A program made the translations under genes and the position numbers. 64,000 bases of DNA, taken from positions 1 to 64,000 of the forward strand of contig JAYZAY010000021.1 of NCBI GenBank assembly GCA_036339465.1, read 5' to 3'. The stretch is from Myxococcota bacterium (lineage in GTDB: Bacteria > Myxococcota > XYA12-FULL-58-9 > JABJBS01). Positions 17,077-43,481 of the stretch are shown piece after piece; position 1 is the stretch's first letter; every line of letters begins with the position of its first letter. A model generated the notes under the pieces. The model was given only the letters and a program-made list of their open reading frames with translations, was not told where the DNA came from and did not search any database.

Positions 17077-17814
17077 ATGACGATTCTCATCACCCTCCTC
17101 ACCTTCAGCTACCTCACAACTCCTTCGAATCCTCATCCAGACGACGTTCTCAAGAATCTTAACTCAAAAGATGCAATAATCAGAAGCAAAGCCGCATCCA
17201 TCTATGCAAAAAATTGTCGCTCCGGGCGCTCGCGCCACCTCTTCCGGAGACACCGAGCCATGAATGCTGCCTTCGCCAAAACCCTCGGGGATCCGGATTC
17301 TACGGTTCGGCTCAATGGCATTGAAATGTCTGTTTGCCTTCAACCGAACAAAGCAATCGAAAAATTAAACCCCAAAGTCAGTGACCACGCGGCACAAGTG
17401 AGCCTCGCGGCAATGACTCGGCTCGCCCACTTAGAAAACCCCCTCGGAAGCGCGGCCGTCATCCTATGGCTTACAAAACACCAAACCCCCTGCCTGAATG
17501 GGCAATCTGACCTTCTAGAAAGGTGTATTTTTGCGGCCTATACCCTTGGCCAAACTTCGCAACACGAACCCCCAGGCGCCGCCACACGATTAAAGGTAAG
17601 CCAAACTCTCAGAAGATTCATAGCAGCTCCATCCGCGAAATTAAGAGAAGTAAGTGTGGTTGCACTTTCTCTCGCTGGGCACCGAAACGACACCGAATCC
17701 ATTTTAAGATTAATCGCTCAAGAAAAAGCAGGCGTCTTCAAAAACCAAAACTCACCAGCGACGATTTCCCAGTTTGAGTCCATTGCTCGACAATTGAAAC
17801 AATCGAAGGAGTAG
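17077..17814 (+). CDS. Secreted HEAT-repeat-like protein
   Basis: Signal-like N-terminus; L.D.D..VR-type helical repeats. Confidence 0.65.
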   Translation: MTILITLLTFSYLTTPSNPHPDDVLKNLNSKDAIIRSKAASIYAKNCRSGRSRHLFRRHRAMNAAFAKTLGDPDSTVRLNGIEMSVCLQPNKAIEKLNPKVSDHAAQVSLAAMTRLAHLENPLGSAAVILWLTKHQTPCLNGQSDLLERCIFAAYTLGQTSQHEPPGAATRLKVSQTLRRFIAAPSAKLREVSVVALSLAGHRNDTESILRLIAQEKAGVFKNQNSPATISQFESIARQLKQSKE

Positions 17815-17890: not shown

Positions 17891-20800
17891 TCAAGCCTCA
17901 CCCAACACTTTAGAACTGGCGCTCAACAGAGAGCTGAAGCAACGATAATTTTCTATCACGCCCCGATCTAAATCAAAATCACTCATCTTCCATTCATGGG
18001 CTTCTAGTTCTTCACTCATTTTTCGAAGTTCATCTATTTTTTCGTGAACTCCATTTTTCTTAGGCAAACGCTTAGGGGTTTTCTCCAAGTCAGCGTAAAG
18101 GGCTAGAATTAAGGGCTCCACATATCTTTCCCGAATCACCGACAAGGTCTTTGGATTGATCCCGTGCACATAAACCAAACATTCAAAGGACCGCAATTTC
18201 CCCGAACTTACCTTCCAATAAATCGGTCGTCTCTTATACTTCTGGAGATGGTCCTTATAAAATCCATTCTCCTGAGTGAAATAGCGTTGTATCGTTCTCT
18301 GGGGAGATTCTCCTCCTCTTGGTCCCAGAATTCCTGCAATGAAACTCAAGCACGAAAGGGTGTTCGTATGGCCCCATACAAGGGAGATAAAACCTTCGAG
18401 TCTGGACGCGGCCTCATCTGGAAATTGGCCCTGGCTAAGAGGGATAATCCCATCTTGAACCGAATATCCTAAATCATTACCAGCAAGGTGATCTGGCCCA
18501 ACACCATCACCCACAATCATTAACCCTGGTCGCTTCAACGAGTAGCGCCCCATGAAACAACCAATAGCATACGAAATGAAATCTTTAATTGCATCCTGCA
18601 GAAATAGCGCCTTATACTCTTTTTTCTGAAGCCCACGACCATAGCGATAAACCGGATTCATCATGAGCGTAATTTCAGCGAGGGAGACCTCCGTGCCCAC
18701 TTCACCCTTCAAACCATAATGCTCCACTAAAGCACAATTATTGGCTATTTCTAAAACACGCAAACGTTCGGTTGTTTCCAAATTATATTGATATTGATGG
18801 TGTAATGAAGATTCGATGTCTACACCCGCGACTCCATCAACGCCCCGAGGCAACCACGGTAATGTCTCGAAATCCCAGCTTAGCTCCGAGCTGTTCCAGT
18901 CCTCTCGAGCAATGGCAACCATACTCTTCAAGCGTTCATGACCATCCACATGCAGCCTGCCAACCGGTAGCTTCGAAATCGCACCCTGCTCGAAATTAAG
19001 AGTCTGAGAAAACACCTGAATACATTCCTGAGCAACACTTGAATTTAGATACCCCAAAAGCCCAAGCAACTGTGACTCATCCTCGTGGAGAATAAACATT
19101 CCTGCCTCGCTAGGAATAGAACCTTCATCGCAAATCCGTACGGCAAAATAGCTCGAAGAAATCTTCGTCCAAGTCAGACCTTGCTTGAAATACACACGCT
19201 CGTTTTGTGGGCGAGATTTTCGACGACCAGAATCATCACGATAACTCTTAACCCGACACCCATTGTCCTCCCAATCCACAACAAAAAGGTGATTTCCGTA
19301 CCATTTGCGATAATCACCTCCCTTTAAATACGGAAACCATCGCGCCGTTTTAGGCCCTGGCTTTCTCCCTGGCCTGTAAATTTTTCGAGAATCCACCTCA
19401 AACCAATATCGGACAAACTTTGGAGTATCTCCCGTTATAAGACCCTGCTTAACTTCAAAGCCATCACTCAAATGTTTTCGCGTTTCGAAAAGAGACTGTA
19501 GACCTTTGCCCAAAAAATACCCGAGACTTTTTTGCGGAAAGCTATTGAAGAAGGATGATTTCCTCCGGAATAGCCAGCCACAATTGGGATTCACAATCGC
19601 CTCAAGGGTTCTCGGGCCTTGTTGATCCACACCTTTAAATCCAGAAAGCCGGACATAGCCTGCTTGATAATGGCTGTCGTGCTTATTTTGGAATGTAAAA
19701 CAACAAATAGGGACAGTCGCCCCGGCAAAAGCCGAATACTCCAATTGCACCACACTTGTAATTGTGGCGGAATCTAGGAGCTGATACCGCAATGCCGCAT
19801 AGGACCCAATAAACATCCAAACAAAGGGTGTCATAAAACCCAAATGGCCTTCTTCTTTTACAAGCTTTCGACAACGAACAATAAAGGCAGAAAAAAGATC
19901 TGCCTGGTAACCGGAAAAATATTCCGTTAAGTACCGACGCACGACATCCGGTTGGTGTTTGCGTCCCATAAACGGGGGGTTGGCAATGATAACATCGTGC
20001 TCACGACACAGAACCTGAGCAACCTCGAGAAGAGTCAGAAGCTTCGGGTTTGCTCGCCCAAAAAAGGCCAATTTCCCTTTCTCACATGATTCCCGTAGTT
20101 CGGGCAAACACCGCTGTAATTTCTGCGGAACTTCAATAAGAGAGCCCAATAATGGCGCGGCCTCAAACACCGCTGCAAGCTCTCCCAACAAAACACCCTC
20201 TCGCCCTAGTGGTGCAAGCATCGACTCTACCACGAGAGTCGATGTATCGGGATAGGCCCACAAACTCAGGCTAGGCTGCCGCTCAAGGATCCCTGGATCA
20301 TCGAGGTTGGCACGCAACAAAAGAACCGTCTCGGCCAATCTAATTGCACGCTCATCGATATCGAGACCGACTAAATTGTTTTCAAGTATGAGGGACGCTG
20401 CCTCGATCAAATCATAGCCTGCTTTTAAGTAAGCCTCCCTCATCACCTCATAAGCATCCAACAACAAATGGCCTGTGCCGGCAGCGGGGTCCAAAATTGT
20501 CATTTCGGTAAGGTCAAGCTGTCCACACCCAAAGGTATCTGAAGGTGACGGTAAAAGATAATTAAGCCTAAGGCCATCTCTACTAGACGCGACTCTCGTT
20601 TTGAGATATCTCCCCAGGCTATTGTGCACCAGGTATCTCGAGACCCACTTGGGAGTAAAAAGTTGGGTAACCACAGCCAATTCACGCGCACTCGAAACCC
20701 TGCCCGAGACTTGTTTTTTGTCATAATCAACAAAGCCTTGAAAGCACCAACCCAAAATCTCACAATTTCTCCAGAGTTCCTCCGGAAGACCAAAACAAAA

Positions 20801-21160
20801 GTGGTTAGCCACCTCTAAATTCATCAGACTTTCGACCGTGGACTCTGACTCAAGCTCCTCTAAATGCCGAAACAACGCCGGAAAAACCTGGGAAACCCAA
20901 CGAAGAGATTTGCGCAAAGAACTCAAGCACGATTTTGGTGACTCCAAACAAGCATTTTGAAGTCCGGCAATTCTGGCGGGCAATAAGGCATTCACTTCCA
21001 TGAACCGAAGCACACATAGAAAGAGAAAACAATCACATGATAGTTCTCTCCAAAAGCACATTTCCTGGGACCGGCTGAACTGGTTTCCTATAGAGAGACC
21101 CGAGCACGAAAGTAGTTCTCTCCCCTTCTTACTAAAAAGAATAATGCGCGCATGCTCCAT
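17891..21160 (-). CDS. pglX: BREX-1 adenine DNA methyltransferase PglX homolog (copy 2)
   Basis: TQLFTPKW, ILDPAAGTGHLL, IANPPF, FMTPFVWMF, KGG..RKWYGN, YKRRPIYW, DLDRGVIENY. Start placed at ATG 21160 (MEHARIILFS), 7 bp after the upstream stop. Confidence 0.9.
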   Translation of the reverse strand: MEHARIILFSKKGRELLSCSGLSIGNQFSRSQEMCFWRELSCDCFLFLCVLRFMEVNALLPARIAGLQNACLESPKSCLSSLRKSLRWVSQVFPALFRHLEELESESTVESLMNLEVANHFCFGLPEELWRNCEILGWCFQGFVDYDKKQVSGRVSSARELAVVTQLFTPKWVSRYLVHNSLGRYLKTRVASSRDGLRLNYLLPSPSDTFGCGQLDLTEMTILDPAAGTGHLLLDAYEVMREAYLKAGYDLIEAASLILENNLVGLDIDERAIRLAETVLLLRANLDDPGILERQPSLSLWAYPDTSTLVVESMLAPLGREGVLLGELAAVFEAAPLLGSLIEVPQKLQRCLPELRESCEKGKLAFFGRANPKLLTLLEVAQVLCREHDVIIANPPFMGRKHQPDVVRRYLTEYFSGYQADLFSAFIVRCRKLVKEEGHLGFMTPFVWMFIGSYAALRYQLLDSATITSVVQLEYSAFAGATVPICCFTFQNKHDSHYQAGYVRLSGFKGVDQQGPRTLEAIVNPNCGWLFRRKSSFFNSFPQKSLGYFLGKGLQSLFETRKHLSDGFEVKQGLITGDTPKFVRYWFEVDSRKIYRPGRKPGPKTARWFPYLKGGDYRKWYGNHLFVVDWEDNGCRVKSYRDDSGRRKSRPQNERVYFKQGLTWTKISSSYFAVRICDEGSIPSEAGMFILHEDESQLLGLLGYLNSSVAQECIQVFSQTLNFEQGAISKLPVGRLHVDGHERLKSMVAIAREDWNSSELSWDFETLPWLPRGVDGVAGVDIESSLHHQYQYNLETTERLRVLEIANNCALVEHYGLKGEVGTEVSLAEITLMMNPVYRYGRGLQKKEYKALFLQDAIKDFISYAIGCFMGRYSLKRPGLMIVGDGVGPDHLAGNDLGYSVQDGIIPLSQGQFPDEAASRLEGFISLVWGHTNTLSCLSFIAGILGPRGGESPQRTIQRYFTQENGFYKDHLQKYKRRPIYWKVSSGKLRSFECLVYVHGINPKTLSVIRERYVEPLILALYADLEKTPKRLPKKNGVHEKIDELRKMSEELEAHEWKMSDFDLDRGVIENYRCFSSLLSASSKVLGEA

Positions 21161-21167
21161 CGGCAGT

Positions 21168-24100
21168 TCACCGCTTCCCCAAAACAATTTTTCGATCAGA
21201 CGCCAAGGTGCCAAAGAAATCGTAATTTTTCTTCACCCCGTCACCTAGATCCAGTTGAAATGCATCTTCGGACAAAACTTTAAGACTTTGCTCGAACTCT
21301 CGAAGTTCATTCAGGCGTCCATGGAGTTTTGTCTTTTCGGCCGGAAACTTCGGATCCGGAATCGATGAAGCCGCCTTTGCATATTCTTGTTCAAGGGTGG
21401 AGATATAAGGGATTACGTAGGATTGTCGTATCATATCCAAGGTTTCAGAATGGAATCGATGAAGGTAAATAAGGCACTCAAACGTTCTATACTTCCCGGA
21501 ACTTATTTTCCAATAAATCGGTCGTCGTTTGTATTGAATCAAGTGGTCTCGGTAATACCCGCCAGGCCGGGTTAAATAGGATTGGACCTTTTCCAAGGCA
21601 TTCTTGCCTCCTTTAAGCCCGAGACACTTAGCGACAAAATCAATATTTTCCTCCAAGGATTCCGGGGGCCACACTTCCTTGAGAAATCGCTCAAATCTCT
21701 TGGCCGCCTCATCGGGAAAAACACCCCAAGTAAGTGGGAGGACCCCATGGAGTGCTGTACCAAATTGGCCATAAAGACTGGGGTTGAAATTGTCATTACG
21801 ATGACCCGCATAAACCAACCCCGGCTGCTCCAACGAATATCGCCCGAGAGTGCAACCGATCATATAGGAGATGAGTTCCTTCATGCTTTCCGCTCTGAAA
21901 CGTTTTTCATATTCATCATCGGAAAGATTTGGAGCAAATCGATATCGCGGGTTGGTCTTCAAACTCACATCTTCGAGACCAACATCTATCTTGATTTGGT
22001 TCTCTATACCAAACAAAACCGCGACGTTCGCATTATTCTGCCGTTCCAATTCCTGGAGTTTCTCCGATTGTTTCTTAACATAGCTACGCCAAACACTAAA
22101 GCTCTCTGATAGAGATATCCGCGGTTGATTATGGTCCGCCAGGAAAGGAAGCCTCTGAAAATCCCAACTGGATTCGAAAGAAGCCCAATCCTCACGAGAA
22201 ATCCGAATACACTCGTCAACGACTTCTGAACCTACCTCTTTCGGGCATGGAAGATTTGCCAAAGTTCCCGCTTCAAAATTCAAGGTGGGTGAAATCGCTC
22301 CTAGAACGACCTGGCAGAGCTTTGAGTTAAGTAATCCCAAAAGCGGTTTCATTTTCCCATTGGAGATTGGAAAGAGAGAAATACCCGCATCTGCGAAAAT
22401 AAATCCCTCTGGGAAATAACGTGCTGAAAATTCTCCAGAACTAATTTTTGACCAACTCAAGCTGGGTTTGAAATAGTAAGACTGATTCTTTACCACATAG
22501 CTTGGTGATGTCAGATATGGGTATTTAGCTAGAACCGTTTTTTTAATTTGGTCTCCATCGCTCTCCCAATCCACAATGTATTCTTGATGCCCATACCACT
22601 TACGATAACGCCCACCCTTATTGAGTGGAAACCACCTTTGGCGGCTGTCTTTCGCGCTTTGCGCATCTTTACAATGAAAAGCGATATCGTCTATTGAAAC
22701 CTCGTGCCAATAACGCAGGAAGCGTTCATTATCGGAAGTCGCTAAGCCTTGTTTGACATCGCCAAACTGTGAGAGTCGCCCCGGATGCGAGAAAATGTGT
22801 TGTAAAACCCCCTTCGTCCAAAATGCAATGGGTTGCCCCGGGATCTGCTTCAAGTCATCGGGCTTCATCAAATAAAACCATTCGCATTTGGGGACATGGA
22901 TCGCTTCTAGGACTTTAGGGGCTTGGTTTTCGGCGCCTCGAAAATCCGACAGTTTTATAAACGCTCCGGTAAAATTCGGTATGTATCGATTCTGGAAAGT
23001 AAACGCGCAAATCGGGACGGTGGCATCAGAGAAACCGGAGTATTCCAATTGTACCAGAGTCATAAGAGTCGCTGTTTCTAAAAGATTGAGACGCAGAGGG
23101 GTATAAGAACCTATAAACATCCAAACAAAGGGAGTCATAAAACCAAGAACCCCATCACACTTAGCAAAATCTCGACTCCGAACAATAAAGGAAGAGAAGA
23201 GGTCAGTACGATAATCGTAGTAATTGGAATATAGAAAATCCTTTAATATCTTTGGTTGGTTTTTTTTCCCAAGGTATGGGGGATTAGCGATAACAACGTC
23301 GTATTTCTTTAGGAGAAGGCGCGCGACATCAACGAGCCTTAGAATGGCGCGTCTGAAGGTCGGTATTTGTTCGGTAGATTCATTGCGGCACCATTTTTCA
23401 ATCTCCACTAGTTTATTAGCCACGTTGTCCGGTATCTTAAGTAGCGAGCCAAAAATCGATGCCGAATGAAAAATGTGGCATAATTCAGTCACCGCTTCAG
23501 GAAGCGCCTTAATCTCGGTGAAACCCCGTGGACTATCAGGAATACAGTAAACCTTTGGGGAAATCCCCTTTTCCATGAAAGTCGCGTCGTCAGATCGGGC
23601 TTTCATAATGAGAGCAAAGTTTGCAACTTGTACCGCTCGTGGCTCGATATCCACGCCAAACAAATGGTTTTCAAGTATACGTTTTGGAATCGTGCTGGCC
23701 GCGTGTCCGAGGGAGAGATAAATATTCCTTAAGGTATCGTAGGCTTCGAGTAGTAGGTGTCCTGTGCCCGCTGCGGGGTCCAAATCCGTTGGCACACCGC
23801 GCTTCGTTTCCGCGCTATTGCGGGTGAGCATTGTCGTATCAATATGATACTTGAAATTATCCGTGAGGGCTGAATCCGATTCACCGTCCATCCAGCGGGT
23901 AACAATGCTATTATGACATAAGTATTGAGCAATCCATTTTGGTGTAAAAAGTTGGGTTGAAACGGCAAGTTCATGGACCTCAAAGGCCCGACCCGTGGAC
24001 CTCCGTTTCTCGGGAGCAACATAGAATTGATACAACCATCCGAGGATTTCCGTTTCAGAACAAGACTCTGCCGTTAGGGTCGAACTTAAATCGGTTAAGA

Positions 24101-24440
24101 AAGAGTGTTCCGCGGCGATTCGGTCTAAGACGCTTAGGAGATGAGAAGTGGGTTCTGGAAAAACTGAGGGTATCATCCGTTGATATTTTCGATATAGAAA
24201 TGAGAGAGAAGCGCTGGAAGACGCCAGTTTATGTGTGGATGTGACGCCCTCAGAAGAATCGAGATAGCTTTGGACTTCCATGTAGCGAAGAGCGCACAAA
24301 AAGCCAAAAACCTTATAGGCGATATCTCTGACTAATTCGCGGTCGGTTGCAGCCCCTAGGGATACCAGAACATCGGTTGTAAGTTCCTCTAAGAACTTTC
24401 GAGTGCGTAACGCAAAGTTTGTCAGTTGCTGCTTAGTCAC
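21168..24440 (-). CDS. pglX: BREX-1 adenine DNA methyltransferase PglX homolog (copy 1)
   Basis: N-terminus MTKQQLTNFA..R, EILGWLYQFY, TQLFTPKWI, LDPAAGTGHLL, IANPPY, KGG..RKWYG, YKRRPIYW, DLGDGVKKNY..F. Confidence 0.92.
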   Translation of the reverse strand: MTKQQLTNFALRTRKFLEELTTDVLVSLGAATDRELVRDIAYKVFGFLCALRYMEVQSYLDSSEGVTSTHKLASSSASLSFLYRKYQRMIPSVFPEPTSHLLSVLDRIAAEHSFLTDLSSTLTAESCSETEILGWLYQFYVAPEKRRSTGRAFEVHELAVSTQLFTPKWIAQYLCHNSIVTRWMDGESDSALTDNFKYHIDTTMLTRNSAETKRGVPTDLDPAAGTGHLLLEAYDTLRNIYLSLGHAASTIPKRILENHLFGVDIEPRAVQVANFALIMKARSDDATFMEKGISPKVYCIPDSPRGFTEIKALPEAVTELCHIFHSASIFGSLLKIPDNVANKLVEIEKWCRNESTEQIPTFRRAILRLVDVARLLLKKYDVVIANPPYLGKKNQPKILKDFLYSNYYDYRTDLFSSFIVRSRDFAKCDGVLGFMTPFVWMFIGSYTPLRLNLLETATLMTLVQLEYSGFSDATVPICAFTFQNRYIPNFTGAFIKLSDFRGAENQAPKVLEAIHVPKCEWFYLMKPDDLKQIPGQPIAFWTKGVLQHIFSHPGRLSQFGDVKQGLATSDNERFLRYWHEVSIDDIAFHCKDAQSAKDSRQRWFPLNKGGRYRKWYGHQEYIVDWESDGDQIKKTVLAKYPYLTSPSYVVKNQSYYFKPSLSWSKISSGEFSARYFPEGFIFADAGISLFPISNGKMKPLLGLLNSKLCQVVLGAISPTLNFEAGTLANLPCPKEVGSEVVDECIRISREDWASFESSWDFQRLPFLADHNQPRISLSESFSVWRSYVKKQSEKLQELERQNNANVAVLFGIENQIKIDVGLEDVSLKTNPRYRFAPNLSDDEYEKRFRAESMKELISYMIGCTLGRYSLEQPGLVYAGHRNDNFNPSLYGQFGTALHGVLPLTWGVFPDEAAKRFERFLKEVWPPESLEENIDFVAKCLGLKGGKNALEKVQSYLTRPGGYYRDHLIQYKRRPIYWKISSGKYRTFECLIYLHRFHSETLDMIRQSYVIPYISTLEQEYAKAASSIPDPKFPAEKTKLHGRLNELREFEQSLKVLSEDAFQLDLGDGVKKNYDFFGTLASDRKIVLGKR

Positions 24441-24498
24441 AAATTACTCGACCAGTGTGATATTTTTTGTTCGGGCGGCGCGGTGATAACCTCGCGAT

Positions 24499-26097
24499 TT
24501 AGGATTGAAGGGTGATTTCGCCCGCGAGGTATTTTTCTTTGAACAACTCCTCGCCCATGGCGGCGACCCTCTTCAACAACGCCTCTTCCAAAAAGGCCGA
24601 AACAAATGCTTTGTTGGGTCGCCCTGCCCTTCCGAGGGAGTGTTTGGCCTGCTCCTTGGCTTCCGCTTCTAGGTTTTTATAATCTCGGTGGGTCAACTCG
24701 TCTTCCGCCTTGGAGATCATCGTGGTCCTATATTCCTGCCATAAGGTCTCAAGGTCTAGAAGTTCGGTCTCTTGTTTTTTCGGATGTCGGGACCGGTTGA
24801 CGGCACTTCGTGCCCCATTTTCAAATCCCTTAAGATAAAAGAAACTCTGTATCTCATCTTCGGATTTGAATTTCCTCGCCTGTTCAATTGCATGGTTCAG
24901 CATTTCAAGGGCACTGGGTTCACCGTGTTTGTCAATCCATGCCAAGGCGAGGTCGTGTTCCTTTCGAGTAATCGTGATTCCTTCTGAAGAGCCATGAAGC
25001 AGTTCATAAAACTTCTCCACCAGGGTATCGGCTGGATCGATTATTTTTGTTCTTGCTTGTTTGGGTACACGTTCGAAAATATACCGAAAATCGTCACGGG
25101 ATTTATCGACAGTAAGACTTATCTTTAAGCCGCGAGCTTGTAATCGAATCATGGAAGCCTCCACCTGATCGGTGACATAGCTTGAAGCGGTCCGACCGCC
25201 TCGGATAATTTTTTCGCTGTCCATGGCCAATTTGTATTTAGCGAATCGGCGACAGCTTTTGACTGTTTCCTTGCGTTTGCGAGCCAATTGTCGATCGAGC
25301 CAACGAAAGAGTCTTATGTCGATGGGTCTTTCCAAGCTGAGAAGAAATTTCATATCAAGTCGTTTGGTATAATTCTCCTTAATGGATTGATAAAATAATT
25401 CACCCCAGCGAATCTCATACACTTTCTTGCGACGGCGACCGCCCCGCTTCTGCGCTTGGATAACCTCATTTTCGATAAAACTGGTTTGGTCGGGTTCTTC
25501 TTCATCGTCATCGCGTTCCGTGAGATCGACAATGTAATCAATAATGGAGAAATTCGCAGGTCGGTGTGTTTTCAGGGAAGGAACCCACCATTTGTCGTGA
25601 ATGATTCTGGTTGCTGCAATGCGTTCCAACTCGCAGGTTGCGCGTTTCAGCTCTTTGCCTGCACGCCGGCTTTTAGAGTGGGGATACATATAATCATCCA
25701 CAAGTTCTCGAATCGCAAATTGAAACTTTGGTGACTGAAATGAGTTTTGTTTATTGTGCATCCAAAGAAGGGCTAGAAGAGTTCGCTCTGCATATGCCGA
25801 TGGGAGCCCGCTACCTGAACCGGCTTCTAAGCGATAGCTCTTGTCTTCGGATAAATAGATGATATTGGATTGTCGATTTGGCTTTTTACCACGACCGGGG
25901 CGATTGTCTGTAAGTCGACAAAAGGGAATTTCAACAAGGTTCATTTCATCGATAGCGCGTTCGCCATCGAGAGCGTTGAAAGGCAGGTTAAGTTGATTTT
26001 TGGAATCGTAATCAATGATGGGTTCGAGATCTTGGAGTTCGCCGTCTTGGTCTTCGGGATTGCCACTGGGTTCTCGGTTGGCGAATTTTTTTTTGAT
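24499..26097 (-). CDS. Plasmid/chromid replication initiator protein (replication initiator protein A-like)
   Basis: DEMNLVEIPF, GLPS, FSIID, W...F.QSI...Y.K.LD, P...RLFRWLD pattern; adjacent to iterons and parA. First ATG is 25944, but the frame stays open to 26154 and AAGGAGG lies 6 nt before ATC 26097. Confidence 0.82.
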   Translation of the reverse strand: MKKKFANREPSGNPEDQDGELQDLEPIIDYDSKNQLNLPFNALDGERAIDEMNLVEIPFCRLTDNRPGRGKKPNRQSNIIYLSEDKSYRLEAGSGSGLPSAYAERTLLALLWMHNKQNSFQSPKFQFAIRELVDDYMYPHSKSRRAGKELKRATCELERIAATRIIHDKWWVPSLKTHRPANFSIIDYIVDLTERDDDEEEPDQTSFIENEVIQAQKRGGRRRKKVYEIRWGELFYQSIKENYTKRLDMKFLLSLERPIDIRLFRWLDRQLARKRKETVKSCRRFAKYKLAMDSEKIIRGGRTASSYVTDQVEASMIRLQARGLKISLTVDKSRDDFRYIFERVPKQARTKIIDPADTLVEKFYELLHGSSEGITITRKEHDLALAWIDKHGEPSALEMLNHAIEQARKFKSEDEIQSFFYLKGFENGARSAVNRSRHPKKQETELLDLETLWQEYRTTMISKAEDELTHRDYKNLEAEAKEQAKHSLGRAGRPNKAFVSAFLEEALLKRVAAMGEELFKEKYLAGEITLQS

Positions 26098-26139: not shown

Positions 26140-26640
26140 CTTCTTTATTCTTATTTATATATTTAAGAGCTAAAAAGAGAACTAAAATCAAATATTTAGA
26201 AAGGAATTTTGCTTTAATGGTTCTCGCTATTTCCTTTAATGGTTCTCGCCTTTTGTTATAAGAGTTCTTGCTTTTCTTTAATGGTTCTCGAGTTTTCTTT
26301 AACGGTTCTCAAGTGCGCAGGAGGTGGACGGTACTTTGGTCGGTTTCTCTAAGTCATTGAGAATACAGGTGTTGTGTTTCGTTGGACGGGTGTCAAGAGA
26401 AGTTTTAGTCATTAATGGTTCTCGCTTTTGCTTTAAGCATTCTCGAAGTTTCTTTAATGGTTCTCGAAGTTTCTTTAATGGTTCTCGGATTTTCGGTGGG
26501 GAGTTGTTCGCGTCGGACTCTCCGAATGGTTGGGGTAAGTCATGGATATAGCTTTAGAAAACACAGGGTTTTAGAAGGAACCGGTGGGTGTAATGGGCCG
26601 GTCCGCATGGCTTGGGTGTTTTCCTTGAGAACCCTTATAG
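26140..26640. other. Putative iteron-type replication origin
   Basis: AT-rich tract 26140-26210; five iterons 26207-26312 (20-22 bp spacing); four iterons 26405-26488 (21 bp spacing), consensus CTTTAATGGTTCTCG; IHF-like TAAGTCATTGA at 26350 between clusters; inverted copy 26624-26638. Confidence 0.85.
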
Positions 26641-26689
26641 AAAAAGGATCTCTAGGCGATCGTTCTCGGAGGCTAGCGATGGATGGGAG

Positions 26690-27040
26690 TTACCGGGTGG
26701 GTTCGAGACGAAGTGCGTGTTCCTTGAATTCCTCTTCGTCGAGACTCTTAAGGGCGTGGATCGCGAGTCGGAAGAGATCGTTGTTTGATAGGCGTAGCCT
26801 TAGATCGAAGGTTGTATCAATAATCTCTTCAAAGAGTACCTGCTCTTTGTGTGGCAGGGCTATATTGTGTCGGGTTTTTGGGCCCTTGGATGGACGTCCT
26901 GGCTTTTTCGGTGTGGTCGATGTGGGTTGTTCCACTACTTGAAGAGCTTTAGAGGCGGATTCTAGCGGGGTGTCTGGGGATTGAATCCTTTGACTGGGTG
27001 TTTTTACTTGGAGGTCTTTTAGGTTAAGTTTACGCGACAT
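26690..27040 (-). CDS. Small ParA partner, probable type Ib centromere-binding ribbon-helix-helix protein
   Basis: Overlaps parA 3' end by 11 bp; disordered N-terminal tail then beta-helix-helix pattern (RHNIAL...SNNDLFRLAI). Confidence 0.65.
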   Translation of the reverse strand: MSRKLNLKDLQVKTPSQRIQSPDTPLESASKALQVVEQPTSTTPKKPGRPSKGPKTRHNIALPHKEQVLFEEIIDTTFDLRLRLSNNDLFRLAIHALKSLDEEEFKEHALRLEPTR

Positions 27041-27851
27041 GTTTCACCTCGTTGGTTTCTTGTTCGTGTATGAATAGTGCGGTTATTTCTTCGGCTGCGT
27101 CCCGATAGGCTGCGCACACTGGCCGGGATGGTTCAATATCGAAAAGGGTCGCCCCCAAAAGGGCCGATTGGTTGATGCGTTCGTCTCTACCTATTCTTGC
27201 ATCTAGTAAAGTGAGCCCCATGCCTAGGATGGCTTCTTTGATAGCAGCATTGGTTTTTTTGGTTCGCCCGTCATATTTGGTTTGTAAGCCAACGATGGCG
27301 GTGGGGGCTTCGGTAAATTCGTTAAGTTCCTGAATGGTGCCGTAGAGATCCTGCCATCCTTGAAGAGCCCCATTTTCCGCCGGCATTGGAGCGATGACGA
27401 GATCACTCGCATAGATTGCGGCTTCGGTATAGGCGCCAATATGCGGTGGGGTATCGATCACGACAAAGTCCCAATGCTCTTGGGCTTTGCGGATTGCGCC
27501 GTCTAGGAAATAAAGGCGTTGTCCTTGGAGGTAGAGCTCGCGTTCTTTGCGCGCCATCCCGATATGTCCGGGAGCGACTTGTAGATTGTTACGGTTGGTT
27601 GGTTGCACAATATCTGGAAGTGAAAATTGTGCTTTGGGCGTTAAGACCTCGGCAATGGAAGCCAGTTTTGCTTGTTCTTCGCTGACTCCCAAAATGGAGG
27701 TTGCGTTGCCCTGGGGATCGAGATCGATCAACAGGGTTTGGTGTCCGGTTTCTGCAAGGGCCGCGGCTAGGTGGCAGGCGGTGGCTGTCTTCCCTACTCC
27801 GCCTTTTATTTGAGAGATACAAATGGTTTTTGGTTTCATTGTTTCCTCCAC
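27030..27851 (-). CDS. parA: ParA family partition ATPase
   Basis: Deviant Walker A KGGVGKT, LLIDLDPQGN, Walker B FVVIDTPP; no N-terminal HTH. Start GTG 27851 or ATG 27839. Confidence 0.95.
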   Translation of the reverse strand: MEETMKPKTICISQIKGGVGKTATACHLAAALAETGHQTLLIDLDPQGNATSILGVSEEQAKLASIAEVLTPKAQFSLPDIVQPTNRNNLQVAPGHIGMARKERELYLQGQRLYFLDGAIRKAQEHWDFVVIDTPPHIGAYTEAAIYASDLVIAPMPAENGALQGWQDLYGTIQELNEFTEAPTAIVGLQTKYDGRTKKTNAAIKEAILGMGLTLLDARIGRDERINQSALLGATLFDIEPSRPVCAAYRDAAEEITALFIHEQETNEVKHVA

Positions 27852-34689: not shown

Positions 34690-36026
34690 CTAAAGGCCCC
34701 TAACCCGAAGACGCATGCCGTTTTGCGACATCATCGTAATGATGGTGTGGGGCTTCGGAACAAATCCAGACATCCGCTCCAAGCGACAGACTTCCAAAAC
34801 CTTCGAAATAATAATCATGGCTTCTGCCATGGCCAATCGGTCACCAATGCATTTGCGCGGAACTCCCACGAAGGGAATAAACCGGTAATTATACCCGTTT
34901 TCCTGCATAAGAAAACGCTCCGGGCGATATTCTTCTGGGCAATCCCAATAACGGGGCGAACGGTGCAATCCATAGATAGGACATAAAACAATGCTATTAG
35001 AAGCAACGACATAATCACCCAACAACACGTCTCTGATTGACGTTCTCGCCAACACAGGAATAACGGGATAAATCCTGAGAGCTTCATTAAAAGCCACTTC
35101 CGTATAACGAAGCTCCCGGTATTGACTCGGTTTCATTATCTTATCCGGTGCAACTTCAACAATCTCAACCCTTATCTTTTCCTGAACATCCGGATGCCCC
35201 GCCAGCAAATAGAAAAACCAAGTAAAGGCTGCATTGATGGTATCGTGACCCGCGAGAAAAATCGTAATCAACTCATCACGAAGCTGATGCCGGGACATCC
35301 CCTCGCCGGTTTCTTCATCAACAACGCTAAGAAACATCGAGAGAACATGACTCTTCCTTCCTTGAGCGGTGCCTCGATCAATGAGTTCGTACACAATTCG
35401 GTCTAGAGTCTCCACCGCCTCTCGTTCCGCGCGGTGGGTTTTGGTGGGCACCCACCGGGGTAGGGTTATCGGCGGATAAACTCGCCTTAAAAAGGCATCC
35501 CCCGCTAAGGAGGAACCGCGATGCACTTCCTAAGCAACCTCCTTAGAATCTGTCCCCAAAAAACCTGACTGGCAATCTGAGTCGTGAGGAGTGTGACCGC
35601 GGGTGACACGTCAATTTCGTCCCACTCTAATGTTGCCCAATCATGGACCAACGCATTCGAAAATTTTTCAATATCAGCGCAGTAGCCCTCAATGGCTTTG
35701 ACATGAAAGGAATTATTCACAGACTTCCGTTGCCGACGCCACAACTCTCCTTCACTGGTCACCAACCCATTGCCCATGAGGTATTTCATTTCACGATACT
35801 TATTGCTTTTGCGAAAATCTTGATGGTCGGATCGAAGCATCTTCTCAACTAAAGCGGGGGAATTCACCAAATAGGCATCCATGGGGAAGGGAAGATAACT
35901 CAACTCCCCATAGGTTTCGCAAAGAACTTCAAGCTCTTTTACCGAACCACGACGAAAACACTGTGCCACTCGAATTGCCTGCCACCGATTAGGACCGGCC
36001 GGACGTGGTGACTTTGATGGAAACAT
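34690..36026 (-). pseudogene. Cytochrome P450, frameshifted
   Basis: N-part GNGLVTSEGELWRRQRK (35505-36026); C-part AGHDT, EALR, PERF, PRKCIG (34690-35526) in another frame; heme loop degenerate (FVGVP). Confidence 0.88.
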
Positions 36027-36350
36027 TATTCTTCGCGCGCAGGAAACGCTGATTTAGGAATAAAGCCGACAAAACTGGCACACCCGAATTTTCCTCAATT
36101 ACCACACCTGGCCCCATCTGACACCCAGCCCCTATAAATGAGTTTGCCCCGACCTTGATTGTCTTTAAGTAAAGTATACGCATTTCTCCCTTTTTGCGAA
36201 CCACATGGGGAGAAAGATAAACCTCATTGCCAAAAAACACATTGTCGCCAATATCGATATGACCGCGGTCGGTGACCTTTACCAAGGTCGCCCAAAAAAC
36301 CTTATCTCCTACTTGGCTGCCCCACGCCCTCAACCAAGAGGAGTATAGAT
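35989..36350 (-). pseudogene. Left-handed beta-helix acyltransferase, 5' truncated
   Basis: LRAWGSQVG, IGDNVFFG, VGANSFIGAGC hexapeptide pattern; 5' end abuts the asnB remnant. Confidence 0.7.
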
Positions 36351-37537
36351 GTTTTCAAAAGTCTCTGGGTTCCAATACTTCTCAAAACGTGGGTCGCCGG
36401 AAAAAAAACGCACCCACTCTGCAATGGGAATATAGAGCGGTTGCTTGTGTCGCTTTCTGATAAACTCAGGATTTCTACTTCGGTGCATCTCTTTTAAAAT
36501 ATCTTTTTCGTTCATGCCTCGAAGTCTATCCGTCTCAGGAAGCGACAGCGCCACATCCACAAAACCATCATCCAAATACGGCACCCGAAGCTCCAGCCCA
36601 TGGGCCGAACTCATTCGACCCGCCATCAATAGAACCCAATTGGGCAAGCTAACTGCCAACTCAAAATCGAGATTTTGATGGAGGTGAGAGTAGGGCGCTA
36701 ATTTCGGAACCAAGGAATTCTTAAAATAGTTTTCTTCCTCGTTCTGATATATCGGAAATTCGCCCTTCCAATCATCACCGAAGACATCACTCACATAGGT
36801 GTGTAACAAGCCCCAAGTCGCAATTTTTTGAGGGTAAAAACCGTAGGTCTCACGAATATTATCGGCTTCAGCCTAACGGTGCCCGTCCACATAAAATCGA
36901 ATCAAGGAAAATGCTAAATCAAACCATGAAAATCCTCCGGGTAATTTAAGCGATGGGGAAGGCGACTCAATCCGCCCATTAGTTTCGCGCGTGTCAAAGT
37001 GTTACGACGTTTCATCCAACGAAACCCATCATAACCCGCCAAAAGTTGGTCAGGGCCTTCACCAGAGAGCACCACTCGGTGCCCTGATTCACAGACCCCG
37101 AACGCGAGCAATCCAGAGTTCCTGTTTTCTGGGGTTCCGCAGGGCAAATGCAAACATTCCATGTAATCGCGTAAGAGCATGGAGTCCAAAGCGCAAAAGG
37201 GAAGCCTACAAAACTTGGGTATCACCTTGGGTATCAAAACGGGTCCCATATTCATGGATTTCTTTTCTTAGATTCTTGTAATTATATATCTCACCATTGT
37301 AGACCAATCGCGGTAGCTCTGGATTGCTCACCTTTGGGGGAAACGGCTGATCCGACCGAGGATCTAAATCAATAACCCGAAGGCGATTGTGCCCTAAAGC
37401 AATATTGTTGTGGATCCCATGCGCAGAAAAATCCGACCCCCGGTGCTCTTTTGAGCGCCCAGCATCCGAGCCATCGCATTCTTGAGTTCATCCTTGTGGA
37501 TGATGCTAAGGGGCAGAATGGATGAAATCCCGCACAC
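36330..37537 (-). pseudogene. asnB: Asparagine synthase (glutamine-hydrolysing)-like amidotransferase, fragmented
   Basis: GTG start (M)CGI with GAAGGA RBS, ALGHNRL.VID, VYNGEIYN, VVLSGEG.D.L.AGY, AHGLELRVPYLD, EK.ILK across several frames; far shorter than an intact gene. Confidence 0.85.
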
Positions 37538-43200: not shown

Positions 43201-43481
43201 CCGCCAGTTACGAAGAACACGGGAGGTTTGCATCCTGGGCCGGCAGACACAGAACTGCCATCGCTACCACATTTAGAAGCAAAAACTATGATAACAATAT
43301 CCCTGCCAATGCATCCGTTACCATCAACGGTGTCAAATGGGATGCTAAAAAGATCAAGGAATTCCGCCAAGAGTTACCCAAACGGCCTGGCGTCTTAATG
43401 GGTGGCGATAAGTTCTTCACCATGACCAAGATCATGTATCAATTAGAGCACCACAAAGCAGCCCAGAGAAAAGCCAGTTAA
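40254..43481 (+). CDS. Large hypothetical protein (coiled-coil middle, Gly-rich beta C-terminal half)
   Basis: 1075-aa ORF, AGGTGA RBS, no Sec signal, DxxDG motifs at the N-terminus. Confidence 0.88.
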   Translation: MSNTRLNPTGDFDAKLLQKLDARDSNTDGVIKDLNSSEVKETLAKAGITDTASLDKWDGKFDGQIDLTKIRNPEGAKDWFSSSNTHFQNRTNKTSRNRVYQTIVGARDMGMDRRGSELSSEISDWSNLSRINYNKFFKKGLGYNQASNPLTKKVAEIDTALLEMKDPAISEVLKKQSTFFKHINNSITNRASGRTDETAKAIELLAEMKTSVSKLGPEHAALKQQLTKDMADFENLLLNFANVAHLAESRMGQTVNSADNQLAPYFVKTLYRYSADIRRSRPHFGATVQGAIDSYQKDIKLHLHWMKSVNEIRANRGAFSSLKDYQEAISAKLKGGGKGLVEAAVKMAKADWQTANAGIHLQEADKAIKHGSGQVTLANAELDKTKSSLVDGETNIWKADRALKSGKTGPAQEFINQLGVQLKDVDRQLATAQQKLTNAKQSADAADAHLKDASTELKQASDITLSVRNGTYGRRLNTQLSSIESEIKSLSSLKTHLTNQHKRLVEDISATTIRHKDLNHGVAAARSEGQTIFTAAQKIEIDKAEQAYLGALDRMMDGDTLKLSEKGLAALINSAADENGEYSRVDFRIGGGVAARGNIGIVGGRAWVQGMLSTGVSVKRGDSDDVEVAIDFAALINAGVEVEALFGLIGAGVESTVDYEKRVAFRFANSEDAARFLMQKVYAPILRQARNKVPTKAKGKFDQMVQTGPYSLEPPKNPILRVSSHKLGSAVSGRIRGGIPGVASARAKGGVSASKTWVELTDAKTGRKVNTQEVTNKALFFEFGAGRANAGSFNVKGEIAWQDTANHPDPSSDGRHRDWNLTVTLGGTTATTIAKGGKAAIADFAGEILGVQPPFSPEKLKAAGVTSQVFEGVQGAVASQLARIKGVDSDIALTINIHEQDVGGKRSGEPKYQVQFTRASIKYSSFAGVGSGSLKDAGGKLAPGPGAVGTHFTAGFGYEREEVIAEIINGGNQAAENYILQNAASYEEHGRFASWAGRHRTAIATTFRSKNYDNNIPANASVTINGVKWDAKKIKEFRQELPKRPGVLMGGDKFFTMTKIMYQLEHHKAAQRKAS

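What the first reader, a model, noticed from the sequence alone, without database searches (positions are those of the whole stretch)
17891..26097. Orphan tandem pair of BREX pglX genes placed directly behind a replication initiator
Seen: rep, a 58-bp gap, pglX-1, a 7-bp gap, pglX-2, all on one strand. Both are uninterrupted ~1090-aa ORFs with SAM-binding and catalytic motifs (NPPY, NPPF), but they differ at target-recognition segments (GLATSDN/VVKN/FADAG versus GLITGDT/SRPQN/PSEAG). No brxA, brxB, brxC, pglZ or brxL is recognisable in 64 kb. Known: PglX sets BREX sequence specificity and, in characterised type 1 systems, needs other Brx proteins to methylate in vivo. Inference: a replicon-encoded specificity cassette that either plugs into a host BREX complex in trans (adding two motifs, protecting or addicting the replicon), acts as a decoy anti-BREX, or has become a stand-alone methylase linked to replication control. 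This is the best candidate here for an undescribed system.
Basis: partly seen in the sequence, partly recalled or inferred. Interest (0 to 1): 0.88.

Follow-up and report, generated by a model that had tools for sequence, protein, structure and literature searches.

The report
Core-less tandem PglX methylases behind plasmid rep
Two intact but very diverged copies of the DNA methylase of the BREX phage-defence system sit directly behind a plasmid-type replication gene in a marine bacterium that lacks every other BREX gene, which makes them a natural test of whether this enzyme can work alone.

Summary
On the minus strand lie a rep-like gene (24499-25944), a 58-nt gap, pglX-1 (21168-24440), a 7-nt gap and pglX-2 (17891-21160). 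Both methylases pass NCBI's BREX-1 PglX cut-off and keep the SAM-binding and NPPY/NPPF motifs. A confident model of PglX-1 shows the full BrxX fold. They are sister paralogues at 38% identity, and nothing in 5.8 billion proteins is closer than 40%. Their N-terminal domain is about 65-80 residues shorter than in 77 of 79 operon-embedded PglX examined.

Iterons and parA confirm a plasmid-type replication module. No brxA, brxB, brxC, pglZ or brxL was found in the 92.8%-complete genome.

The arrangement is not unique. I found detached PglX genes in at least eight other genomes or mobile elements. Four of those genomes lack pglZ and three carry a full BREX-1 operon elsewhere. Tandem pglX pairs recur independently, four of them inside BREX operons.

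My best reading, at moderate confidence, is that these are BREX-independent site-specific m6A methylases carried as replicon cargo. The main rivals are trans use of an unseen BREX core and a recently orphaned remnant.

The scan has noted reduced or decayed BREX sets on other DNA, but not this arrangement.

I rate it a new variant of a known kind, of moderate interest.

The parts
17891..21160 (-). pglX-2: 1089-aa BREX-1-family PglX paralogue (NPPF; ATG start 7 nt after the pglX-1 stop)
   Evidence: ORF. NF033452 786.5 bits against cut-off 500. PADLOC PglX E 1.5e-240. Keeps 103 of 122 family-conserved positions. Sister of pglX-1.
21168..24440 (-). pglX-1: 1090-aa BREX-1-family PglX paralogue (NPPY; GTG start)
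   Evidence: ORF. NF033452 923.3 bits. AlphaFold2 model pLDDT 90.8, pTM 0.85. Foldseek to Salmonella PglX 8q56/8c45 TMq 0.89 and to E. coli BrxX 9ewz 0.80. Keeps 105 of 122 conserved positions.
24441..24498 (-). 58-nt rep-pglX-1 spacer, with no terminator-like or sigma-70-like site
   Evidence: Sequence. The consensus scan places no site in it. Contigs of two public runs bridge it.
24499..25944 (-). rep: 481-aa remote homologue of RPA-type replication initiator protein A
   Evidence: tblastn to 4 planctomycete plasmid 'replication initiator protein A' genes, 23.5-24.8% identity, E 3e-7 to 4e-11. Atlas neighbours carry PF10134. Five paralogues in this genome. No Pfam hit even at E 10.
26209..26313 (.). 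iteron array 1 (about 5 units, 21-22-bp period, core TTTAATGGTTCTC)
   Evidence: the repeat finder family D1. Core matches at 26213, 26235, 26277 and 26298.
26407..26490 (.). iteron array 2 (about 4 units, 21-bp period)
   Evidence: the repeat finder family D1. Core matches at 26411, 26453 and 26474. 7 of the 18 genome-wide matches (1 mismatch allowed) cluster in the two arrays.
27030..27851 (-). parA partition ATPase of the same replication/partition module
   Evidence: Pfam AAA_31 E 6.8e-43 and CbiA. NCBIfam ParA_partition E 3.8e-32, below its cut-off.

Best explanation
These are two paralogous, catalytically intact N6-adenine DNA methyltransferases of the BREX-1 PglX (BrxX) family. They came from an old tandem duplication. 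They are carried as the first cargo behind the RPA-type rep gene of an iteron/ParA replicon in a marine bacterium, probably a planctomycete. That taxon is inferred only from who carries the Rep and nearest PglX relatives. The bacterium has no detectable BREX core.

Shown: family membership; the full four-domain fold; intact SAM-binding and catalytic motifs; sisterhood of the two copies; an N-terminal domain about 65-80 residues shorter than in PglX embedded in BREX operons; the replication module; and no brxA, brxB, brxC, pglZ or brxL found in the genome searched (92.78% complete).

Inferred: the two genes are read through from rep, since the gaps are 58 nt and 7 nt and no terminator-like site lies between. 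Each enzyme methylates one strand of its own short asymmetric motif without BrxB/BrxC/PglZ. The trimmed N-terminal domain may have removed the self-inhibition that keeps canonical BrxX inactive on its own.

The payoff I think most likely is epigenetic marking of the replicon and its host's DNA, which camouflages the replicon from methylation-reading defences (BREX or R-M) in cells it enters. This is the role other orphan methylases play on mobile elements.
For: Family and integrity:
- NF033452 scores of 923 and 787 bits against a cut-off of 500.
- Motifs I and IV are present in both.
- 105 and 103 of 122 positions that are at least 90% conserved in 166 other PglX are kept.
- The model has pLDDT 90.8 and TMq 0.89 to Salmonella PglX.

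Old duplication with both copies kept:
- The two are sisters with support 0.997 and 0.998, on a stem of 0.28 and tips of 0.86 and 1.06.
- They are 38% identical and share derived changes (R91F, S315T, D1024E, and a 12-residue deletion).

No core:
- Seven library models gave nothing over their cut-offs. The controls rang for all of them except BrxA.
- Local profiles built from 54-63 BREX loci gave zero BrxA, BrxB, BrxC or PglZ hits at E <= 1.

Short N-terminal domain:
- The TQxFT motif starts at residue 161 (PglX-1) and 164 (PglX-2), against 226-308 in 77 of 79 operon-embedded PglX.
- The model's first ~130 residues are five helices with no beta-sheet.
- The only other full-length PglX this short (L191, motif at 139) is also core-less. 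It sits on a mobile element beside a second methylase.

Core-less PglX exists elsewhere:
- A complete chromosome (G402) and three MAGs (G403, G407, G408) have a full-length PglX and no PglZ.
- Two Caproiciproducens genomes keep theirs at a syntenic housekeeping locus.

Literature:
- Drobiazko et al. 2025 (PMC11842806, passages) propose that the NTD, CTD or MTD insert act as cis-inhibitory elements. They note that S. coelicolor PglX, which lacks the NTD and CTD, methylates in vitro.
- The abstract of Li et al. 2024 (PMC11317158) reports selective in vitro methylation by E. coli BrxX alone.

The contig belongs to this genome: tetranucleotide r = 0.981, rank 74 of 90. Rep paralogues occur on four other contigs and in family-level relatives.
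Against: - Characterised BREX-1 PglX/BrxX do not methylate alone, in vivo or in vitro. They need BrxB, BrxC and PglZ (PMC11842806 and PMC11341690, passages).
- Both window proteins keep the BREX-specific C-terminal domain and most of the MTD insert. Those papers suggest these parts dock BrxC and PglZ.
- The genome is a 102-contig assembly, 92.78% complete. Defence islands and plasmids are easily left out of such bins.
- Three of eight other genomes with a detached PglX do carry a full BREX-1 operon elsewhere (G401, G404, G406). One of them is the genome of the nearest relative, L067.
- The link between a short NTD and the core-less state rests on two independent lineages. Several core-less PglX have an NTD of ordinary length (L083, L097, L136, L140).
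- No methylation, expression or phenotype data exist.
- The population data are too thin to show selection: 6 differences, 4 non-synonymous and 2 synonymous.
Confidence: 0.45

Rival explanations
1. Spare specificity subunits that work in trans. The two PglX dock onto a BrxB/BrxC/PglZ core encoded elsewhere, either on DNA of this organism missing from the bin or in other hosts of the replicon. They add two recognition motifs to that BREX system.
For: - Canonical BrxX needs BrxB, BrxC and PglZ (PMC11842806).
- The C-terminal domain and the overall fold are retained.
- A Neobacillus chromosome (G401) has a tandem PglX pair about 170 kb from a complete BREX-1 operon.
- The genome of the nearest relative L067 (G406) has a BREX-1 operon whose own pglX is in two pieces, plus a separate full-length PglX. 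G404 has a core elsewhere too.
- The window's genome is only 92.78% complete.
Against: - None of five core genes was found with seven library models and four local profiles.
- None of 40 relatives has a close PglX. No genome of the same family in the 401-genome phylum sample has a BREX-1 PglX (f1 0/5).
- The N-terminal domain, a proposed docking surface, is cut down.
- Conserved NTD residues W88 and R91 are replaced in both copies.
Confidence: 0.3
2. Recently orphaned remnant. The pair comes from a BREX-1 operon that had two pglX genes. The core was lost, and the two methylase genes are inert passengers that have not yet decayed.
For: - Tandem full-length pglX pairs inside BREX-1 operons occur in four loci (L104, L172, L184, L188/L189).
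- The same replicon carries decaying genes: a cytochrome P450 split over two ORFs and an asparagine-synthase fragment.
- pglX loss and disruption are common in BREX loci (PMC9716671 and PMC7002104, passages).
Against: - Both 1090-aa frames are open. They keep 105 and 103 of 122 conserved positions and both catalytic motifs.
- The locus is at least 99% identical in contigs of marine metagenomes from four studies, with no frame-breaking insertions or deletions listed.
- The composition is fully that of the host: r = 0.884, 44th percentile of random 6.55-kb segments.
- No remnant of any core gene lies next to the pair.
Confidence: 0.17
3. Replication-linked methylase or anti-BREX decoy. Either the enzymes methylate the iterons to time initiation, or they bind and titrate a host's BREX proteins without methylating.
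For: Only the position directly behind rep and the presence of GAGAAC-containing iterons.
Against: - The rep-pglX linkage is not conserved. The four rep paralogues of this genome carry other cargo, and relatives with the Rep lack the PglX.
- A decoy would not need intact SAM-binding and catalytic motifs in two copies.
- Nothing links any PglX to replication control in the papers read.
Confidence: 0.05

Closest known systems
BREX type 1 PglX/BrxX (E. coli HS BrxX, PDB 9EWZ; Salmonella PglX, PDB 8C45/8Q56; pEFER PglX)
   Same: Same protein family: NF033452 above its cut-off, and phmmer E 2e-172 and 3e-160 to the solved chains. Same four-domain fold, TMq 0.80-0.89. Same gamma-class motifs.
   Different: There is no brxA, brxB, brxC, pglZ or brxL beside it or in the genome. 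The N-terminal domain is about 65-80 residues shorter and lacks the beta-sheet. Identity to any known member is at most 40%. There are two diverged copies in tandem, behind a plasmid rep.
BREX-1 operons with two tandem pglX genes (loci L104 Rhodobacter flavimaris, L172, L184, L188/L189), and the Neobacillus sp. PS3-12 detached tandem pair (L083)
   Same: Full-length pglX duplicated head to tail. Each pair is its own lineage-specific duplication.
   Different: Those pairs are 59-74% identical where measured (L083, L104). They lie inside a BREX-1 operon or in a genome that has one. The window pair is 38% identical and has no core. I found no paper describing such tandem pairs (search).
Streptomyces coelicolor Pgl (BREX type 2) PglX
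   Same: A PglX-type methylase reported to methylate DNA in vitro on its own. It lacks the BrxX-type N- and C-terminal domains (as cited in PMC11842806 and PMC12707154, passages).
   Different: The window proteins score only E 5.7e-6 against the BREX-2 model. They keep the BrxX C-terminal domain. Only the N-terminal domain is reduced.
Type IIL/IIG enzymes (MmeI family) and orphan gamma-class methylases such as CamA
   Same: Homologous methyltransferase and target-recognition domains (Pfam MmeI_Mtase and Eco57I; Foldseek hits to CamA and MmeI). One-strand methylation of asymmetric sites is a property recalled for MmeI and BREX, not tested here.
   Different: There is no nuclease domain. The first ~130 residues are a helical bundle. 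A BrxX-type C-terminal domain is present, which those enzymes lack (TMq only 0.34-0.40).
Orphan DNA methylases on phages and plasmids used as anti-restriction camouflage
   Same: A methylase carried as cargo of a mobile replicon with no cognate restriction partner. L191 shows a similar PglX beside a second orphan methylase, a DNA ligase, a MazF-like toxin and a recombinase.
   Different: That role is known for Dam, Dcm and type II-like methylases (recalled, not from a call). I found no report of a PglX-family enzyme in this role (search).

Membership tests
BREX type 1 system | PglX methyltransferase | tested here: met
   NF033452 scores of 923.3 and 786.5 bits against a cut-off of 500.
BREX type 1 system | PglZ (alkaline-phosphatase-like core protein) | tested here: not met
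   PF08665 and TIGR02687 gave 0 matches in the genome, and the controls rang. A local PglZ profile from 58 loci gave 0 hits at E <= 1. The genome is 92.78% complete.
BREX type 1 system | BrxC ATPase | tested here: not met
   NF033441 gave 0 matches. PF10923 gave one hit of 20 bits, below its cut-off of 22.2, on another contig. The local BrxC profile gave 0 hits.
BREX type 1 system | BrxA, BrxB and BrxL | tested here: not met
   PF08747 gave 0. PF08849 gave 0, but its control rang nowhere. TIGR02688 gave 0. Local BrxA and BrxB profiles gave 0. The local BrxL profile gave only 31-48-bit hits in 825-920-aa frames, which I read as ordinary Lon proteases.
BREX-1 PglX/BrxX protein family | SAM-binding motif I and catalytic NPPY-type motif IV | tested here: met
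   DPAAGTG at residues 221 and 224; NPPY at 386 and NPPF at 394.
BREX-1 PglX/BrxX protein family | Four-domain fold with BrxX-type target-recognition and C-terminal domains | tested here: met
   Model pLDDT 90.8. Foldseek TMq 0.89 to 8q56/8c45 and 0.80-0.87 to E. coli BrxX. Only PglX-1 was modelled.
BREX-1 PglX/BrxX protein family | Full N-terminal domain (about 210-227 residues: helix, three-stranded sheet, helical cluster) | tested here: not met
   The TQxFT motif is at residues 161 and 164, against 226-308 in 77 of 79 operon-embedded PglX. About 80 consensus positions are missing. The modelled NTD has 5 helices and no strand.
BREX-1 PglX/BrxX protein family | Methylation only within a BrxB-BrxC-PglX-PglZ complex | not testable with these tools
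   This needs methylome or biochemical data. The papers disagree on activity of BrxX alone.
Type IIL/IIG restriction-modification enzymes (MmeI-like) | N-terminal nuclease domain fused to the methylase | tested here: not met
   No nuclease family appears in Pfam. The PADLOC type IIG model matches only from its position 430 onward. The modelled N-terminus is a short helical bundle.
DISARM (DrmMI methylase with DrmA/DrmB/DrmC) | DrmA/DrmB (DUF1998/MZB) and DrmC next to the methylase | tested here: not met
   No neighbour hits a Drm model, except a distant PLD protein 21 kb away that scores better as cardiolipin synthase. The only MZB hit in the genome is a MrfA/Hrq1-type helicase with an RNase_H_2 neighbour on contig C33.
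Iteron-type plasmid replicon with RPA-family initiator | Initiator of the RPA (PF10134) family | tested here: inconclusive
   No Pfam hit at E <= 10. tblastn gave E 4e-11 to annotated RPA genes over the first half only. Atlas neighbours carry PF10134 in 27-83% of members.
Iteron-type plasmid replicon with RPA-family initiator | Arrays of directly repeated iterons next to rep, and a partition ATPase | tested here: met
   Two arrays of 21-22-bp repeats at 26209-26313 and 26407-26490. The core is clustered only here in the genome. ParA lies at 27030-27851.
Iteron-type plasmid replicon with RPA-family initiator | Separate closed circular molecule | tested here: inconclusive
   The contig is 78,879 bp and its ends do not overlap. 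Its composition equals that of the chromosome. No read-level data were available.

The most novel reading that the evidence does not exclude
PglX enzymes with a trimmed N-terminal domain, carried on mobile elements, are self-sufficient methylases. By pre-methylating the element at BREX-type motifs they would give it a passport through BREX-armed populations, which would be a natural anti-BREX camouflage. They would also be nature's own deletion experiment, showing that the BrxX N-terminal domain is the cis-inhibitory, partner-dependent switch proposed from the cryo-EM work.
Probability: 0.2. Interest if true: 0.75.

Novelty: new variant of a known kind. Interest (0 to 1): 0.52.

Why it matters
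A central open question about BREX is why its methylase is inert on its own and what the other proteins do to switch it on. Published work is split. Two structural studies found no activity for PglX/BrxX alone and proposed self-inhibition by the N- and C-terminal domains. One biochemical study reports activity.

This locus offers natural enzymes of that family that have persisted in duplicate, with a cut-down N-terminal domain, in a genome where no BREX partner can be found, and on a replicon. If either enzyme methylates alone, the inhibitory element is mapped without any engineering. It would also mean that PglX-type enzymes belong to the repertoire of orphan methylases that mobile elements use against methylation-reading defences.

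If they are inactive alone, the locus joins a recurrent and apparently undescribed class of detached pglX copies that may serve as spare specificity modules.

Tried and rejected
- Expression: no RNA holder was listed among the 21 runs returned.
- Selection from population data: contigs of four marine runs showed only 6 differences in the two pglX genes (4 non-synonymous, 2 synonymous). Depth was 3-8 and several differences lay near contig ends. This is uninformative.
- A 'joint' from 21999 to 23554 with 8 letters between was seen in runs X1 and X6. Its sides are under 30 nt and its flanks are unrelated, so I treat it as a chance match from another organism.
- Close relatives: the scan of JGI metagenome contigs with PglX-1 found none. 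No fused form of 1909-5000 aa was found (the tool calls this weak evidence).
- Shufflon or programmed inversion between the copies: there are only short conserved-motif matches at about 3290-nt spacing and one 22-nt, 77% inverted pair. I rejected this.
- Recent horizontal transfer: no compositional signal.
- Promoter and terminator scan: site counts were no higher than in shuffles (10 against 12.5 +/- 3.1; 16 against 11.9 +/- 3.7). It says only that no site falls in the rep-pglX gap.
- Gap-column measure of two N-terminal segments: 24 of 79 operon-embedded PglX also lacked residues in one or both segments, because the added rows lose unaligned insertions. I dropped it in favour of motif position.
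- DISARM: the genome's single MZB hit is a MrfA-type helicase.
- MANTIS/Gao_RL (abstract read): no ATPase or helicase-nuclease neighbours, and the PADLOC scan of 14 window proteins gave no such hit.
- The BrxA Pfam search is uninformative because its control rang nowhere.
- Earlier notes of this scan by place and by sequence returned nothing.

Full report
WHAT IS THERE

The three genes lie on the minus strand of a 78,879-bp contig (C21) of a 4.17-Mb, 102-contig genome that is 92.78% complete.
- The rep-like ORF is 24499-25944 (481 aa).
- pglX-1 is 21168-24440 (1090 aa, GTG start).
- pglX-2 is 17891-21160 (1089 aa from an ATG).

The gaps are 58 nt and 7 nt. The N-terminus of pglX-1 from the GTG aligns with the family consensus, so the start call is sound. 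The next gene downstream (17077-17814) is convergent, so the unit ends at pglX-2.

THE TWO METHYLASES

Both proteins pass NCBI's BREX-1 PglX model, with 923.3 and 786.5 bits against a cut-off of 500. Their best PADLOC hit is PglX. They carry motif I (DPAAGTG) and motif IV (NPPY, NPPF).

phmmer finds Salmonella PglX (8c45, E 2e-172) and E. coli BrxX (9ewz, E 3.3e-160). An AlphaFold2 model of PglX-1, built on 74 aligned sequences, has pLDDT 90.8 and pTM 0.85. It superposes on Salmonella PglX with TMq 0.89 and on E. coli BrxX with 0.80-0.87. The BrxX-type target-recognition and C-terminal domains are therefore present. Only PglX-1 was modelled.

The two proteins are 38% identical over their whole length. 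Using domain limits taken from E. coli BrxX (PMC11842806) and projected through pEFER PglX, identity is NTD 25%, MTD 43%, TRD 38% and CTD 40%. PglX-1 keeps 105 and PglX-2 keeps 103 of the 122 positions that are at least 90% conserved in 166 other PglX. That is just under the family's 5th percentile of 106.

THEY HAVE NO CLOSE RELATIVES AND ARE EACH OTHER'S SISTERS

In 5.8 billion clustered proteins, the best hit to PglX-1 is 40% identical. The 120 best hits have a median length of 1210 aa. An exhaustive HMMER search with PglX-2 gave a best non-self hit of 658 bits (38-39% identity), lower than its 752 bits to PglX-1.

In a maximum-likelihood tree of 168 PglX the two are sisters with support 0.997, on a stem of 0.28 and tips of 0.86 and 1.06. 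Adding 21 more sequences gave support 0.998. They share derived changes: a 12-residue deletion at pEFER positions 287-299, and R91F, S315T and D1024E.

The pair is therefore an old tandem duplication in which both copies stayed intact. Their nearest neighbours, with support 0.952, are a metagenomic protein (P0191) and L067 from a Planctomycetia MAG.

A SHORTENED N-TERMINAL DOMAIN

Against the family consensus, both copies lack about 80 positions of the N-terminal domain. The conserved TQxFT motif that opens the methylase domain starts at residues 161 and 164. It starts at 226-308 in 77 of 79 distinct full-length PglX that have at least one BREX core gene in the same locus. The two exceptions are a frameshift-split ORF (L077) and a motif variant that my pattern missed (L151). 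My ORF calls take the longest frame, which can overstate the N-terminal length of the comparison set.

The modelled N-terminus of PglX-1 is five helices with no strand. E. coli BrxX has a helix, a three-stranded sheet and eight helices (PMC11842806).

Short-NTD forms are not unique. About 13-15 of the 168 sequences aligned have an N-terminal region of similar size, but I could not retrieve their genomic context. A finer measure based on gap columns proved unreliable, and I dropped it.

THE REPLICATION MODULE IS REAL

The rep-like protein has no Pfam, NCBIfam or PADLOC hit. Its first ~240 residues match annotated 'replication initiator protein A' genes of four planctomycete plasmids at 23.5-24.8% identity, E 3e-7 to 4e-11. 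Its language-model neighbours carry PF10134 in 27-83% of members.

Two arrays of 21-22-bp direct repeats lie 265-545 nt upstream of rep, at 26209-26313 and 26407-26490. Of the 18 places in the genome that match a 13-nt core of the repeat with at most one mismatch, 7 lie in these arrays. parA is at 27030-27851.

The genome holds five paralogues of this Rep, on C21, C45, C86, C68 and C5. Those on C45 and C5 also have a ParA nearby. Homologues occur in 5 of 40 related genomes.

The contig's tetranucleotide profile is typical of the genome (r = 0.981, rank 74 of 90). The pglX pair sits at the 44th percentile of random segments of equal size. The replicon therefore belongs to this organism, and the pair is not a recent import. 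Whether C21 is a closed circle is not shown.

The slot behind rep holds different cargo at the other paralogues: an HD-domain protein on C45, an integrase plus a 2068-aa protein on C86, and an AAA_14/DUF4143 ATPase on C5. The rep-pglX linkage is therefore not a conserved unit.

NO BREX CORE

Pfam scans of 37 window ORFs show no PglZ, BrxA, BrxB, BrxC or BrxL. Whole-genome six-frame searches gave these results:
- PglZ: none with PF08665 or TIGR02687.
- BrxB: none with PF08747.
- BrxC: none with NF033441, and one 20-bit hit below the cut-off with PF10923.
- BrxL: none with TIGR02688.
- BrxA: none with PF08849, but that search is uninformative because its control rang nowhere.

I also built local profiles by iterating from the pEFER proteins over the 80 PglX loci described in the next section. 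They gathered 54-63 members each. Run on all ORFs of 60 aa or more in the genome, they gave no BrxA, BrxB, BrxC or PglZ hit at E <= 1. The BrxL profile gave three weak hits of 31-48 bits, which I read as housekeeping Lon proteases. DISARM partners are also absent.

HOW UNUSUAL IS THIS?

In a sample of 401 genomes of the same phylum, 38 have a match to the PglX model at E <= 1e-30 and 20 pass the cut-off. Both counts include this genome and one unpublished genome, G195. In the five best others, PglZ lies within 4 kb of PglX.

A pattern scan of 185,579 species genomes returned 80 PglX loci. Of these, 46 hold all five core genes, 22 hold at least one and 12 hold none. Five of the 12 have 5 kb or more of flank on both sides of a full-length PglX: L083, L134, L136, L140 and L142. 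All five sit among housekeeping genes. L136 and L142, from two Caproiciproducens genomes, are syntenic (DUF554 - PglX - HAD hydrolase - ... - DUF188).

Whole-genome PglZ searches in eight genomes with such detached copies gave this split:

| Result | Genomes |
|---|---|
| No PglZ | G402 (a complete chromosome), G403, G407, G408 |
| Only a sub-threshold hit | G405 |
| PglZ present elsewhere | G401, G404, G406 |

All three with PglZ elsewhere hold a full BREX-1 operon.
- G401 (Neobacillus sp. PS3-12) has a tandem PglX pair (1177 and 1026 aa, 59% identical) about 170 kb from its operon, and another split pglX behind brxL.
- G406, the genome of the nearest relative L067, has an operon whose own pglX is in two pieces.

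On IMG/VR contigs, 48 PglX loci split into 22 full, 16 partial and 10 with no core. One core-less full-length copy is L191 (1062 aa, motif at 139). It lies between a P22-type antirepressor, a MazF-like toxin, a tyrosine recombinase and a DNA ligase on one side, and a second DNA methylase and a SprT-like protein on the other. Another, L190, lies beside two serine recombinases and a PLD protein.

Tandem full-length pglX pairs inside BREX-1 operons occur in L104, L172, L184 and L188/L189. In the tree each pair, like the window's, is its own duplication, with L172 and L188 sharing one.

WHAT THE PAPERS SAY

I read passages of the following, unless stated otherwise.
- Drobiazko et al. 2025 (PMC11842806) found E. 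coli BrxX inactive alone in vitro and in vivo. Methylation needed BrxB, BrxC and PglZ. The authors propose that the NTD, CTD or MTD insert are cis-inhibitory and dock BrxC and PglZ. They note that S. coelicolor PglX, which lacks those domains, is active alone.
- Went et al. 2024 (PMC11341690) found no activity for Salmonella PglX alone.
- The abstract of Li et al. 2024 (PMC11317158, abstract and outline only) reports selective in vitro methylation by E. coli BrxX.
- A review (PMC12707154) summarises the same points.
- Programmed inversions that use partial pglX copies are described in PMC9881135.
- Four full-text searches turned up no paper describing solitary full-length PglX or tandem full-length pglX pairs. 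Supplements were not examined.

POPULATION DATA

Part or all of the 8.2-kb stretch is held by 19 public DNA runs from 10 studies, all marine or seawater where labelled. The best holder may be the source sample.

Contigs of four runs from four studies are mostly 99% or more identical. No insertions or deletions were listed. Contigs bridge the rep/pglX-1 junction (runs X1 and X2) and the pglX-1/pglX-2 junction (runs X2 and X6).

READING

The identity of the parts is secure. The function is not.

I favour autonomous methylation (0.45), for five reasons:
- Two copies have stayed intact through a long divergence.
- No core gene is detectable.
- The one domain that differs from operon-embedded PglX is a proposed inhibitory and docking element.
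- Core-less PglX exist in a complete genome and at a conserved housekeeping locus elsewhere.
- Two other core-less copies ride on mobile elements, one of them beside another orphan methylase.

Trans use of a core not in the bin, or in other hosts, is the main rival (0.30). Three facts support it: the retained C-terminal domain, the published dependence on BrxB, BrxC and PglZ, and the three genomes in which a detached PglX coexists with a BREX-1 operon, including the nearest relative's. A recently orphaned remnant of a double-pglX operon (0.17) and replication control or a decoy (0.05) complete the list.

VERDICT

The locus belongs to a recurrent, apparently undescribed class of detached PglX genes. 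It is not a new kind of system. Its special features are:
- the deep divergence of the two copies;
- the trimmed N-terminal domain;
- the position as first cargo of a replicon.

I rate it a new variant of a known kind, with interest 0.52.

Noticed in passing
G000 contigs C45, C86, C68, C5 (loci L029-L032) and window 24499-25944: The genome holds five paralogues (29-43% identity) of the RPA-like Rep. Two of the other four also have a ParA nearby, and each has different cargo behind rep. The copy on C86 has an in-frame TAA. This suggests several plasmid-type replicons, or integrated copies, in one 4.2-Mb genome.
   Followed up: partly
window 34690-36026 and 36330-36809: A cytochrome P450 is split over two overlapping ORFs (278 aa and 173 aa). 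A 159-aa fragment of an asparagine synthase stands alone. These look like decaying genes on the same replicon.
   Followed up: no
window 40254-48508: This is a cluster of a 1075-aa protein with no family (only a faint SMC/LmuB-like coiled-coil signal), a 389-aa protein with no family, and a 1074-aa protein with two PLD domains. The PLD protein scores as cardiolipin synthase-like, with weak DrmC-type hits. It could be an uncharacterised nuclease or defence module.
   Followed up: no
L083, L144, L145 (Neobacillus sp. PS3-12 chromosome): One complete genome carries a full BREX-1 operon, a further pglX split into two ORFs directly behind brxL, and a tandem pair of full-length PglX (59% identical) about 170 kb away among housekeeping genes.
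   Followed up: partly
L067 and L196/L197 (Planctomycetia MAG): The nearest relative of the window pair is a full-length PglX among housekeeping genes. The same genome's BREX-1 operon, on another contig, has its pglX in two pieces (858 aa and 295 aa).
   Followed up: partly
L104, L172, L184, L188/L189: These are BREX-1 operons with two full-length pglX genes head to tail between brxC and pglZ. The duplications arose independently. I found no paper describing this.
   Followed up: partly
L191 (IMG/VR contig, 170 kb): A core-less 1062-aa PglX with a very short N-terminal domain lies in a mobile-element gene set: a P22-type antirepressor, a MazF-like toxin, an MrpR-type recombinase, an ATP-dependent DNA ligase, a second N6/N4 DNA methylase and a SprT-like protein.
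   Followed up: partly
L076, L084, L094, L114, L118, L123, L133 (Collinsella and Coriobacteriaceae): These BREX-1 operons have a PglX encoded as two ORFs of about 820-842 aa and 322-328 aa, separated by 0.9-5.5 kb. This recurrent split form of the methylase was also noted earlier in this scan.
   Followed up: no
window 26415-26942: A 175-aa ORF on the plus strand starts inside the second iteron array and has no family hit. It is probably not a gene.
   Followed up: no
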